A stretch of 64,000 nt of DNA. Origin: Promethearchaeota archaeon (GTDB taxonomy: Archaea; Asgardarchaeota; Lokiarchaeia; Sigyniarchaeales; SOKP01). The translations under genes and the position numbers were made by a program. A model generated the notes under the pieces. The model saw only the letters and a program-made list of their open reading frames with translations. It was not told the DNA's origin and made no database searches. Positions 24,881 through 42,514 of the stretch are shown here, in pieces. The stretch is from contig JAHLWP010000002.1 of NCBI GenBank assembly GCA_019057865.1, forward strand, positions 1 through 64,000, given 5' to 3'. How positions within the stretch are numbered: the first letter of the stretch is position 1; each line of letters begins with the position of its first letter.

Positions 24881-25005
24881 AAATAATATAGTTTTATCAT
24901 GGTATTTTAAGATTTTTATTATAAAATGTTAATCATAGTGTAATTGGAGCTTAAAAGAACATGTTCGAAATCAAAAATATATTCAAATCTCCATACTAAA
25001 GAATT

Positions 25006-25817
25006 ATGATAGAAACAAAACAAAAAATAATCAATAGAAAAATAATAAAAATTAACGAGGAACTCTGTACTGGATGTGGTAGTTGCGTAGTCGACTGTGC
25101 AGTGATATAAAATTTGATTTATATAGCATAAAAGGCGCACTCGCAATTATCGATGGAAAAGCTAGAGTTATAAATGAAGTCTTCTGCGATGGTCTGGGTG
25201 CATGTATATCTGGTTGTCCTGAGGGCGCACTTGAAATAATAGAAAGAGAAGCTTTAGAGTTCGATGAAGAAGAAGTTGAAAAACATTTAGAAGCTATGAA
25301 AAATAATGAGCAGGTTGAAATAGAACAAGTAAAACAAATTGTTGCTGAGCATGCCCATCAATGTGGTTGTCCTTCCGCTCAAACAATGGTTTTTGATGAA
25401 CCAGAGGCGCAAACAGAAGTAAGAGGAAAAATCTCTTCAACTCTACGACAATGGCCTGTTCAAATGCATTTAATCTCTCCTATAGCGTCATATTACCATG
25501 GGGCAGATGTTGTACTTTCAGCAGATTGTGTTGCTTACTCGTATGGTGATTTTCATAGGGACTTTCTAAAGAATAAATCTATTGCTATTGCCTGTCCTAA
25601 ACTAGATCAAGGTCGAGATATATATATCGAAAAAATTAAAGCCTTGATAGATGACGCTAAAATTAACACTCTAACTGTTGCGATGATGGAGGTTCCTTGT
25701 TGTTCGGGATTATTAGCGTTGACCCAAGAAGCAGTTAAGAGAACAAATCGAAAAGTTCCAATTAAATTCATTATCATTGGCATACGAGGAGATATTTTAA
25801 AAGAAGAATGGATCTAA
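25006..25817 (+). CDS. 2x[4Fe-4S] ferredoxin-domain Fe-S protein, intron-containing (exons 25006-25102 and 25132-25817; 260 aa spliced)
   Basis: Exon 1 MIETKQKIINRKIIKINEELCTGCGSCVVDCA-G; exon 2 AA-GAL...CDGLGACISGCP, WPVQ, ACPKLD, MEVPCC. Confidence 0.85.
25103..25131 (+). other. Predicted BHB-type (tRNA-endonuclease) mRNA intron, 29 nt
   Basis: Central helix GTGC/GCAT, bulges AG|T and AA|A, inner stem ATATAAA/TTTATAT; removal gives TGT GCA GAA GGC (CAEG). Confidence 0.82.
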
Positions 25818-40577: not shown

Positions 40578-42514
40578 ATGGAAGGAAAAAGAATTTCTTA
40601 TCATGATTCAGTTCAAAAAGTTTATGAGAGAATTAAAAAAGATGGAATGATTAATATTTGGGACCGTTTTGAGGCACAAGGTTTTGGTGGTGATCCTGAT
40701 AAAAGATGTCCTTTTTGTTTGAAAGGTGCAAGATGTGATTTATGTTCAAACGGTCCATGTAGAGCAGATGCTTCAATTGATAAGAGAGGTGTATGTGGTA
40801 TTACCGCTGATGGAATGGCAATGCGAATGATGCTTCTGAGAAACATATTGGGCGCATCAACTTATCACTATCACACAGAACAAACGATTAAAACATTAAG
40901 AGCAACTGCGGAAGGAAAAACACCATTTAAAATTTCAGAACCAGAAAAGCTCAAAAATTTTGCAAAAAGACTTGGTGTTGATATTTCTGGCTCAGATAAT
41001 GATATTGCTCTTCGATTATGTGATTTTGTTAAAGAGGATTTTAACAGAGCCTACGACAAACCTAGCAAAATTGTAGAGACTTTAGCACCCAAAGAAAGAC
41101 AAGAAGTATGGAAAGAATTAAATATATTTCCAGGGGGAATTTATGGGGAGATGATGCTTTCTAATAGTTCATGCTTGACAAATGTGGATGGTTATTATAC
41201 GAGCTTAGCTCTTAAGGCCATGAGACTTGGAGTTTCCATGGCTTACCAAAGTCAAATTGTAAATGAATATTGCCAAGATATCCTTTTTAATATTCCAAGA
41301 CCCCATAAAATGCGTGTAAATCTTGGAGTGCTTGATCCAGATTATGTCAATGTAATACCTAATGGACATGAACCATTTTTAGGATTTGCTATGGTTCAAG
41401 TTGCTAGAAAACCAGAATGGCAAGAAAAAGCAAAGGTTGTAGGCGCTAAAGGTCTTAGAATAATAGCCAATATTGAAACTGGACAAGAAATGATACAAAG
41501 ATGGGAGATGGATGATGTTTTTTATGGGTTCACAGGTAATTGGATAATGCAGGAAGCTATTTTAGCGAGTGGTTGTATTGATATTTTTGTATGTGATATG
41601 AACTGTTCGATGCCAATTGATCCAATCTATGCTGAGAAATATAAATTTAAATTAATCCCTGTAAGTGAAGTAGTAGCTTTTGAAGGTATTACAGATAGGT
41701 TAAATTATATTCCCCAAGAAGCAGAAAAACAAGCAGAACAACTTTTACAGATGGCAATCGACAACTTTAAAGAGCGAAGGGCAAGTGTGGAACCAGTAAC
41801 AGGATTAGATATGAGTGAAGCTATTGTTGGTTTTTCTACCGAAAGTATCCTTGATGCACTTGGTGGAACTTTAGATCCTCTATTAGATGCTATAAAGAAT
41901 GGCACAATAAGAGGAATTGCTGGATTAATTTCTTGTACAAGCTTAAGAGATAATGGTCAAGATGTCCATACTGTAAGTATTACCAAGGAATTGATTAAAA
42001 GAGATGTATTGGTGTTATCAATGGGGTGTGGTAATGGAGCTCTACAAGTAGCAGGGCTTTGTTCCCCAGAGGCAAAAGAACTCGCAGGTCCGGGTCTTAA
42101 AGCGATATGTGAGAAATTAGGCACACCCCCAGTTCTAAGTTATGGAACATGCACAGATACAGGACGTGTCGCGGATTTAATTGCCATAATTTCAAATGCT
42201 CTTGGAGGAGTCCCAATTCCTGATCTTCCAGTAGTAGCAGTAGCTCCAGAATATATTGTTGGTGGATTCGGAACCAATAAGCTTTAATGGAGCAGAAGGC
42301 TACAATTGACGCGATCTTCGCGTTAGCGTTTGGATTATATACGTACGTGAACCCTGTACCTACGGTTACTGGTGGTCCCGATCTAGTTAAACTTTTAACT
42401 GAAGATTGTAAAGATGTTACCGGTGGTATCTTACACGTCGAAACTGATACACTCCAAGCTGTAAATTCTATGTTAGAGCATATTGAAGCAAACAGGAAAA
42501 AATTAGGTATTTAA
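40578..42514 (+). CDS. cooS: Ni-Fe carbon monoxide dehydrogenase CooS, intron-containing (exons 40578-42254 and 42287-42514; 634 aa spliced)
   Basis: CDLCSNGPC, GVCG, NGHEP, GLISC, GCG, YGTCTD; PEY|MEQKA restored by removing 32 nt. Confidence 0.9.
42255..42286 (+). other. Predicted BHB-type mRNA intron, 32 nt
   Basis: Exon-exon stem GCTCCA/TGGAGC, relaxed central helix GAAT/GCTT, bulges AT|A and TA|A, inner stem TTGTTGGT/ACCAATAA. Confidence 0.85.

What the first reader, a model, noticed from the sequence alone, without database searches (positions are those of the whole stretch)
25092..25137. Second BHB intron, splitting a [4Fe-4S] ferredoxin motif
Seen: the ORF track misses the real N-terminus. 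ATG at 25006 encodes ...CTGCGSCVVDCA and then meets TAA at 25108, while GALAIIDGKA continues in another frame. The 29-nt insert (25103-25131) forms central helix GUGC/GCAU, bulges AG|U and AA|A, intron stem AUAUAAA/UUUAUAU (one G-A mismatch at its base) and outer stem CGACU/AGGCG (one mismatch). Canonical bulge cuts give UGU GCA G|AA GGC = C-A-E-G-A-L, the expected continuation after the fourth Cys. The insert sequence is unrelated to the cooS insert, so only structure and cut register are shared.
Basis: partly seen in the sequence, partly recalled or inferred. Interest (0 to 1): 0.9.

Follow-up and report, generated by a model that had tools for sequence, protein, structure and literature searches.

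The report
Mobile tRNA-type mini-intron in Asgard ferredoxin
A 29-base insert breaks an iron-sulfur protein gene of an Asgard archaeon; it has the exact shape and cut points of a tRNA-type intron, so it is very probably cut out of the messenger RNA, and in relatives it sits beside a DNA-cutting 'homing' enzyme gene that probably spread it between species, but no RNA was available to show splicing.

Summary
The host is a Loki-type Asgard archaeon (Promethearchaeota, judged from homologs). The insert (25103-25131) is in DNA contigs of three independent studies. The same site carries a 29-30-nt insert in 16 distinct sequences from at least three genera; 63 orthologs lack it and read C-A-E-[GA]-A-L (one S). 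Only the canonical bulge cuts give C-A-E-G-A-L in all 16. The central helix pairs in every carrier, the intron stem shows double-sided changes, and dN/dS is about 0.1-0.2. The genome has a two-subunit EndA and RtcB, and similar inserts break acs (5), one leuS copy (4), cooS and single-copy uS12. New here: carriers are scattered on the gene tree, and intron plus about -32/+16 nt of exon moves as a block. A locus-specific, free-standing LAGLIDADG endonuclease gene (intact or decayed) lies just upstream of this gene in seven relatives; five carry the full intron, one probably. It is absent from this genome. Best reading: EndA/RtcB-spliced mRNA intron (0.9), spread by endonuclease-driven homing (about 0.65). 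No RNA run was available. The scan had already noted such introns and such endonuclease pairings on other DNA.

The parts
25006..25102 (+). Exon 1 of the Fe-S protein gene (first 4Fe-4S motif); ends after the first base of the Glu codon
   Evidence: (Fer4 hits)
25103..25131 (+). 29-nt ORF-less BHB intron with in-frame stop TAA at 25108-25110
25132..25817 (+). Exon 2 (second 4Fe-4S motif and AF_0155-family domain)
25097..25100 (+). Central helix, 5' strand (exon); pairs with 25126-25129 (intron)
   Evidence: 100% paired in all carriers
25101..25103 (+). Bulge 1, predicted cut between 25102 and 25103
25105..25124 (+). Intron hairpin: 7-bp stem 25105-25111 with 25118-25124, 6-nt loop
   Evidence: 3 of 7 pairs show double-sided changes, 96% of cells paired
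25130..25132 (+). Bulge 2, predicted cut between 25131 and 25132
25092..25137 (+). Outer exon-exon helix: 25092-25096 with 25133-25137
   Evidence: 4-5 of 5 pairs in carriers; mostly 2-3 in non-carriers
25078..25151 (+). Extended exon-exon stem: 25078-25091 with 25139-25151
   Evidence: 86% of cells paired over the whole outer helix
25071..25148 (+). Approximate block (intron plus about -32/+16 nt of exon) shared among distant carriers; inferred co-conversion tract
24881..25005 (.). Short upstream spacer where seven relatives carry a free-standing LAGLIDADG gene or its remnant; none is present here
42255..42286 (+). The other intron of the window: 32-nt BHB insert in cooS (one A-C mismatch in the central helix); the join gives A-P-E-Y-M-E-Q-K-A

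Best explanation
The insert is an ORF-less, tRNA-type (bulge-helix-bulge) intron in an mRNA. The pre-mRNA folds into an exon-exon stem, a 4-bp central helix between two 3-nt bulges, and an intron hairpin. The host's two-subunit splicing endonuclease EndA cuts each bulge after its second base, RtcB joins the exons, and the 260-aa Fe-S protein is made; unspliced RNA stops after 34 codons. The intron spread between species by endonuclease-driven homing. A free-standing two-motif LAGLIDADG endonuclease, encoded about 115-200 nt upstream of this gene in some relatives, probably cuts the intron-less allele at the conserved C-A-E-G-A codons. The intron splits that site and protects its carrier, so repair copies it with short exon flanks, with or without the endonuclease gene, which later decays or is lost. 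Shown: DNA anatomy, fixed register, covariation, purifying selection, enzymes present, scattered distribution, endonuclease linkage and fold. Inferred: the splicing itself (about 0.9), the endonuclease's target site and role (about 0.65), the direction of each transfer.
For: Splicing. 16 distinct carriers: only register 0 gives C-A-E-G-A-L in 16/16 (registers -3 to -1: 0/16; +1: 6/16; +2: 2/16), and register -1 gives a stop in three. Intron-side bulge bases vary while the exon-side G and A[AG] are fixed. 63 orthologs lack the insert and read C-A-E-[GA]-A-L, one C-A-E-S-A-L. Pair counts on 15 carriers: 95% of cells paired, 14 double-sided cells against 4.9 shuffled, slid controls 25-58%. dN/dS 0.09-0.22 between carriers, 0.05-0.13 between non-carriers. 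EndA: two paralogs above the TIGR00324 cut-off, one with the Tyr/His/Lys motifs, one lacking the His; RtcB present. Similar inserts break acs five times and one leuS copy four times, all with BHB shape within 0-2 nt of the homology-defined site, and the single-copy uS12 gene, whose insert holds an in-frame stop. Spread. Nine carriers need nine changes on the gene tree, at least 7-8 forced by strong branches. Within 33 nt of the junction carriers are 89-95% like another carrier (distal 61-87%) but only 71-79% like their nearest non-carrier (distal 77-100%); non-carrier pairs show no such dip. G123, another genus, has an intron 26/29 identical to this one; the closer G030 has 20/29. All five database proteins 54% or more like the endonuclease lie directly upstream of this gene. 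L321 has an intact endonuclease plus the intron; L325, L326, G123 and L158 have a broken one plus the intron; L324 has an intact one and the contig ends 5 nt into an intron-like start. No remnant was found at 63 intron-less loci. The AlphaFold model (pLDDT 93) matches only LAGLIDADG endonucleases among the top 50 hits. Near 29 other LAGLIDADG-like genes there were 7 inserts of 29-32 nt in 31 kb of aligned coding DNA, against 1 (about 8 after adding sites shared with G000) in 601 kb of controls.
Against: No spliced read, cDNA, peptide or enzyme assay. This genome has no copy of the dedicated endonuclease (best hit 33%). One locus (L319/L320) has an intact endonuclease and no intron, with a diverged junction, and intron-less acs of G012 also sits next to such a gene, so endonucleases can persist without introns. 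The shared block coincides with the exon-exon stem, so pairing constraint could explain part of the flank similarity. The cleanest carrier/non-carrier pair (G027/G005) comes from co-assemblies of one study and may be chimeric. Carriers are related, so the counts overstate independence. Only 2 of the 7 inserts passed the strict BHB filter.
Confidence: 0.85

Rival explanations
1. Spliced BHB intron that was ancestral and was lost many times; the flanks look alike in carriers because pairing constrains them, and the endonuclease gene is an unrelated neighbour.
For: The shared block matches the extent of the exon-exon stem. Many non-carrier states are A/T-ending codons that drift could reach in a 29%-GC genome. 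Repeated loss is published for the cbf5 intron (PMC2738675). Intron identity correlates moderately with protein identity (rho 0.54).
Against: It needs dozens of losses among 63 non-carriers. Intron types cut across the gene tree: G000 groups with G123 of another genus, and G030 has the other type. Loop bases and unpaired synonymous sites are shared too. It does not explain why 6 of 7 endonuclease-bearing loci have the intron.
Confidence: 0.2
2. The insert is not spliced but skipped by the ribosome (programmed bypassing as in phage T4 gene 60, which also lies beside a homing endonuclease gene; from my own knowledge, prompted by scan notes) or by frameshifting.
For: All 16 carriers have an in-frame stop 2-3 codons into the insert, followed by a hairpin. 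In 8 of 16 the codon before the stop (AUA) recurs in the exon-2 frame, which would allow a matched hop.
Against: The other 8 carriers have no matched landing codon. In two carriers (L155, L326) the landing codon AUA is followed by a stop, and in G108 likewise. A hop would add two residues inside a motif whose spacing is fixed in all orthologs. It does not explain the invariant central helix or exon-exon stem. Three acs inserts are in frame and have no stop.
Confidence: 0.04
3. The gene is a pseudogene, or the exon-2 part is translated alone from an internal start.
For: Gene callers report a 244-aa frame from TTG 25083 or a separate 35-aa piece. The gene is probably not essential (not found in several relatives).
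Against: No second lesion in any carrier; exon 1 and exon 2 both under purifying selection; same design in single-copy uS12.
Confidence: 0.03
4. The intron is a regulatory switch (splicing-gated expression of Fe-S or redox genes) kept by host benefit.
For: Unspliced RNA stops early in all carriers; a second intron lies in cooS in the same redox region.
Against: Presence is patchy and unlinked: G001, G024 and G027 have this intron but not the cooS one, G016 the reverse. Introns also sit in acs, leuS, uS12, a GTPase and a hydrolase. This rival is compatible with splicing, and no condition-dependent data exist.
Confidence: 0.1

Closest known systems
cbf5 pre-mRNA BHB intron of Desulfurococcales and Sulfolobales (Watanabe 2002; Yoshinari 2006; Yokobori 2009, PMC2738675)
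   Same: Short ORF-less intron in a coding sequence, BHB at the junctions, cut between the 2nd and 3rd bulge base, placed after the first base of a conserved codon, host with a two-subunit EndA, patchy presence.
   Different: cbf5 is one gene, explained by one gain and a few losses, with splicing shown by cDNA. Here the host is Asgard, many genes carry such inserts (up to five per gene), the distribution looks lateral, an endonuclease gene is linked, and splicing is not shown.
HVO_1309 5'-UTR BHB intron of Haloferax volcanii (Schwarz 2020, PMC7714728)
   Same: mRNA substrate of the tRNA splicing endonuclease.
   Different: It lies in the untranslated leader and does not break a reading frame.
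Short (<50 nt) hairpin-only BHB introns of Thermoproteales 16S rRNA, co-converted by a neighbouring intron's endonuclease (Jay and Inskeep 2015, PMC4496867)
   Same: ORF-less hairpin intron of similar size; spread by a LAGLIDADG endonuclease that it does not encode; co-conversion of flanks.
   Different: rRNA rather than mRNA; there the endonuclease is encoded in another intron a few bases away, here in a free-standing gene upstream of the host gene.
Collaborative (trans) homing in phages: free-standing endonuclease plus ORF-less group I intron at one target (Zeng 2009, as reviewed in PMC3984707)
   Same: Free-standing endonuclease beside a gene whose conserved site holds an ORF-less intron.
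   Different: Phage genomes, self-splicing group I introns of hundreds of bases, target cleavage shown. Here a cellular chromosome, a 29-nt protein-spliced intron, LAGLIDADG family, target not tested.
[quoted passage not shown]
   Same: Repeated gains of short BHB introns in Asgard archaea; two-paralog EndA common.
   Different: tRNA genes only; its text does not mention mRNA, and it found no general route of arrival.

Membership tests
Archaeal BHB intron (EndA/RtcB-spliced) | 4-bp central helix flanked by two 3-nt bulges on opposite strands, each 3' of its helix strand | tested here: met
   (100% paired in 15 carriers)
Archaeal BHB intron (EndA/RtcB-spliced) | Outer exon-exon helix and inner intron helix | tested here: met
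   one mismatch at the base of the inner stem, one in the outer helix in half of the carriers
Archaeal BHB intron (EndA/RtcB-spliced) | Cut after the second base of each bulge restores the functional product | tested here: met
   16/16 only at register 0; product equals intron-less orthologs
Archaeal BHB intron (EndA/RtcB-spliced) | Structure supported by compensatory changes | tested here: met
   3 pairs, 14 cells with double-sided change; related sequences inflate the cell count
Archaeal BHB intron (EndA/RtcB-spliced) | Host encodes splicing endonuclease and ligase | tested here: met
Archaeal BHB intron (EndA/RtcB-spliced) | Spliced RNA exists and EndA makes the cuts | not testable with these tools
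   no RNA holder listed; no assay possible
Collaborative-homing pair | ORF-less intron at a conserved site | tested here: met
Collaborative-homing pair | Free-standing homing endonuclease gene linked to the intron-bearing gene | tested here: inconclusive
   met in relatives; not met in this genome
Collaborative-homing pair | Lateral spread with co-conversion of flanks | tested here: met
   pairing constraint is a partial alternative
Collaborative-homing pair | Endonuclease cuts the intron-less allele at the insertion site and spares the intron-containing one | not testable with these tools
   needs a cleavage assay
Mobile archaeal rRNA-type intron with its own endonuclease ORF | Endonuclease ORF inside the intron | tested here: not met
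   29-30 nt in all 16 carriers; no long form at this site among about 80 orthologs read
Group I or group II self-splicing intron | Ribozyme core of hundreds of bases | tested here: not met
   29 nt; no meaningful Rfam match
Translational bypassing element (T4 gene 60 type) | Matched take-off and landing codons in every copy, with an open frame after landing | tested here: not met
   matched in 8/16, and followed by a stop in one of those

The most novel reading that the evidence does not exclude
Loki-type Asgard archaea splice many ordinary mRNAs with the tRNA endonuclease, and these 28-34-nt introns are mobile passengers of a family of free-standing LAGLIDADG endonucleases: each endonuclease targets a conserved motif in the gene beside it, the mini-intron confers immunity, and repeated rounds leave genes with several introns after the endonuclease decays. 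This would be an intron-gain engine for protein genes in the archaeal relatives of eukaryotes.
Probability: 0.55. Interest if true: 0.92.

Novelty: new variant of a known kind. Interest (0 to 1): 0.82.

Why it matters
In the papers I could search, EndA-spliced introns in mRNA are known for one coding sequence (cbf5) and one leader (HVO_1309); PMC7714728 says so as of 2020, and ten searches found no report for Asgard mRNAs (subscription journals are mostly not covered). If these inserts are spliced, an Asgard lineage has many intron-containing protein genes, including essential ones, which gene callers split or truncate, so annotations and metabolic reconstructions are affected. The link to a free-standing endonuclease gives a testable answer to how such introns arrive, a question that a 2026 preprint on Asgard tRNA introns leaves open. 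It is directly testable with short RNAs, two recombinant EndA subunits and one endonuclease. It does not by itself bear on the origin of spliceosomal introns, which use other chemistry.

Tried and rejected
No RNA holder listed, so reads were laid from DNA runs only; this says nothing about expression. A metagenome pattern that allowed a zero gap found eight records, none without an insert; one (L157) is a chance match. Four viral-contig pattern hits are chance matches in GC-rich DNA, and no relative of the endonuclease was found in viral contigs, so no viral vector was identified. De novo genome-wide BHB scans did not beat decoy registers, and paralog-based insert detection was dominated by true protein indels, so I give no genome-wide intron count. 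A 311-kb comparison with G012 (about 90% identical) found four clear unshared BHB inserts but missed this one because its flanks differ. An apparent shared hairpin core between this intron family and an acs and a leuS intron was not supported for the G000 intron (p 0.13-1.0); the type-B variants were not tested. The G027/G005 pair was first taken as a clean conversion tract, then downgraded (same study, different upstream context). The 1565-aa ORF upstream of leuS has no detectable LAGLIDADG domain. phmmer of the endonuclease alone against PDB gave only noise; the profile and the fold search gave the assignment. Exact-protein lookup of a window protein returned nothing. Searches failed on input errors; one script returned no alignment.

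Full report
Observation. ATG 25006 opens a frame with a CxxCxxCxxxC motif (Fer4 hits) that stops at TAA 25108. Removing 25103-25131 gives a 260-codon frame. The junction forms a full bulge-helix-bulge: outer helix 25092-25096 with 25133-25137, central helix 25097-25100 with 25126-25129, two 3-nt bulges, and a 7-bp intron stem. Shuffled inserts reach this in 7e-5 of trials. Shape alone proves little in a 29%-GC genome, since decoy registers score as often genome-wide. Contigs of three independent studies span the insert without gaps, so it is genomic.

Host and gene. Close homologs come from Promethearchaeota (Loki-type Asgard) assemblies. The protein has two N-terminal 4Fe-4S motifs and an AF_0155-family domain. 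It lies among redox genes and next to cooS in many relatives.

Orthologs. Of 30 genus orthologs, five carry a 29-nt insert at the same base and 25 read C-A-E-[GA]-A-L without it. Wider searches gave 16 distinct carriers from at least three genera and metagenomes against 63 non-carriers. Only the canonical cuts give C-A-E-G-A-L in all 16; a shift of -1 gives Lys, Gln or a stop. Bulge bases on the intron side vary, those on the exon side do not. The central helix pairs in every carrier; three of seven intron-stem pairs change on both sides; slid controls fall to 25-58%. The frame after the join is intact in all carriers with enough sequence, and dN/dS is 0.09-0.22, like that of intron-less orthologs. 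Pseudogene and bypass readings are therefore unlikely: only half of the carriers have a matched landing codon.

Machinery and context. The genome has two EndA paralogs, one with the Tyr, His and Lys motifs and one without the His, as expected for the two-subunit enzyme, and one RtcB. The cooS insert is 42255-42286; of the 27 other cooS orthologs read, only G016 shares it, with a different but fully paired stem. Elsewhere in the genome acs has five inserts and one leuS copy four, each with BHB shape within 0-2 nt of the site defined by DNA alignment, while about 29 relatives have none or one. The single-copy uS12 gene is broken by a 30-nt insert with a stop, and the canonical join restores the frame. 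An essential gene broken this way argues that the pathway works on mRNA. I could not produce a reliable genome-wide count.

Spread. Carriers are not clustered on the gene tree: nine carriers, nine changes. Within 33 nt of the junction each is 89-95% like another carrier and only 71-79% like its nearest non-carrier, while non-carrier pairs show no dip. Carrier-like sites run from about -32 to +16. Intron types cross genera: G123 is 26/29 identical to this intron at 70% protein identity, G030 20/29 at 80%. Pairing constraint could account for part of this, and the best single pair may be chimeric.

The endonuclease. Upstream of the gene in G123 lies a frameshifted LAGLIDADG-like gene, and L158 has a short remnant 79% identical to it. 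Protein searches found five full or partial relatives at 54% or more to P0002. All five sit directly upstream of this same gene. L321 has an intact 451-aa enzyme and the intron; L325 and L326 have broken enzymes and the intron; L324 ends five bases into an intron-like start; L319 has an intact enzyme, no intron and a diverged junction. Four of five against a background near 10% gives p about 5e-4, and 2/13 against 0/63 gives p 0.03; both overstate, because the loci are related. The protein has two LAGLIDADG motifs with acidic catalytic positions, 15 of 17 family members hit PF14528, and its model (pLDDT 93) matches I-DmoI, I-SceI, I-AniI and kin. In G000, other free-standing LAGLIDADG genes flank the intron-bearing GTPase and hydrolase genes and what appears to be the 3' end of acs on another contig. 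Near 29 such genes in other genomes, short inserts were far denser than in controls. G000 itself has no copy of the enzyme for this site, so here it was lost or acted in trans.

Mechanism. Most likely EndA cuts and RtcB joins the mRNA (inferred, about 0.9). Most likely the endonuclease cuts intron-less alleles at the conserved codons and the intron protects its carrier and is copied with short flanks (inferred, about 0.65). How a new intron first arises is not explained. No RNA run holds the locus.

Comparison with what is known. It works like the cbf5 intron (PMC2738675) and meets every BHB feature testable here. PMC7714728 lists cbf5 as the only earlier mRNA case and adds one leader intron. 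Short hairpin introns carried by a neighbouring endonuclease are known in Thermoproteales 16S rRNA (PMC4496867), and collaborative homing in phages (PMC3984707). A 2026 preprint describes repeated tRNA intron gains in Asgard archaea, does not mention mRNA, and finds no route of arrival. Ten literature searches found no report of Asgard mRNA introns or of this pairing. Earlier notes of this scan report the same kind of intron in this and other genomes and the same endonuclease pairing at other genes; one of them (e1-1480649) prompted my look at endonuclease neighbours. They are unchecked AI notes and are not counted as support.

Verdict. Real feature; new variant of a known kind; interest 0.82. 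The splicing claim lacks only RNA evidence; the homing claim needs a cleavage assay.

Noticed in passing
window 42255-42286 (+): 32-nt BHB insert in cooS; shared only with G016 among the orthologs read, with a different, fully paired stem and a perfect central helix there.
   Followed up: yes
G000:C82:579 and downstream (-), L144/L162: Acetyl-CoA synthetase gene with five BHB inserts (32, 33, 30, 30, 30 nt) within about 110 codons; three are in frame without a stop. Its 3' end appears to continue on C39, tail to tail with a 999-aa LAGLIDADG protein gene.
   Followed up: partly
G000:C49:5260-6110 (+), L145/L192: Second, divergent leuS copy with four BHB inserts (28, 34, 30, 28 nt), preceded by a 1565-aa acidic ORF related to the N-termini of other endonuclease proteins but with no detected nuclease domain.
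   Followed up: partly
G000:C27:25059 (-), L288: Single-copy ribosomal protein uS12 gene broken by a 30-nt BHB insert with an in-frame stop; absent in G012. Best target for an RNA test.
   Followed up: yes
G000:C75:14758 (-) and C48:46556 (+): BHB inserts in an alpha/beta hydrolase and a small GTPase gene, each directly downstream of a free-standing LAGLIDADG gene; the GTPase gene has inserts at other sites in G012, G108 and G115.
   Followed up: partly
G000:C13:2764 (-), C7:63890, 63477 and 117732 (-): Further 29-30-nt inserts with BHB-like shape in an acyl-CoA dehydrogenase and thiolase-like genes, found through paralogs.
   Followed up: no
G000:C48:57679-61050, C69:45687-48467, C4:10167-13223, C3:128734-132423: Very large proteins with long acidic repetitive N-termini and C-terminal LAGLIDADG-like domains.
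   Followed up: no
G000:C18:57854-58618: 255-aa free-standing LAGLIDADG gene whose 3' end abuts what looks like a tRNA gene.
   Followed up: no
L319:5812-6573: Intact endonuclease upstream of an intron-less copy of the gene with a diverged junction; possibly immunity by point changes in place of the intron.
   Followed up: partly
window 24957-24966: Palindrome GAACATGTTC about 40 nt upstream of the start codon, conserved in relatives and kept just downstream of the endonuclease stop codon where that gene is present.
   Followed up: no
window 25132-25560: The 5' two thirds of the gene resemble the G003/G005/G027 clade more than the nearest genomes G012/G030, whereas the 3' end follows G012/G030: the gene is a recombinant mosaic.
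   Followed up: partly
G012:C63:30370 and L317/L318: 30-nt BHB-like inserts at the start of a tRNA synthetase gene in G012 and in a glycoside hydrolase gene next to LAGLIDADG genes in G144 and G124.
   Followed up: no
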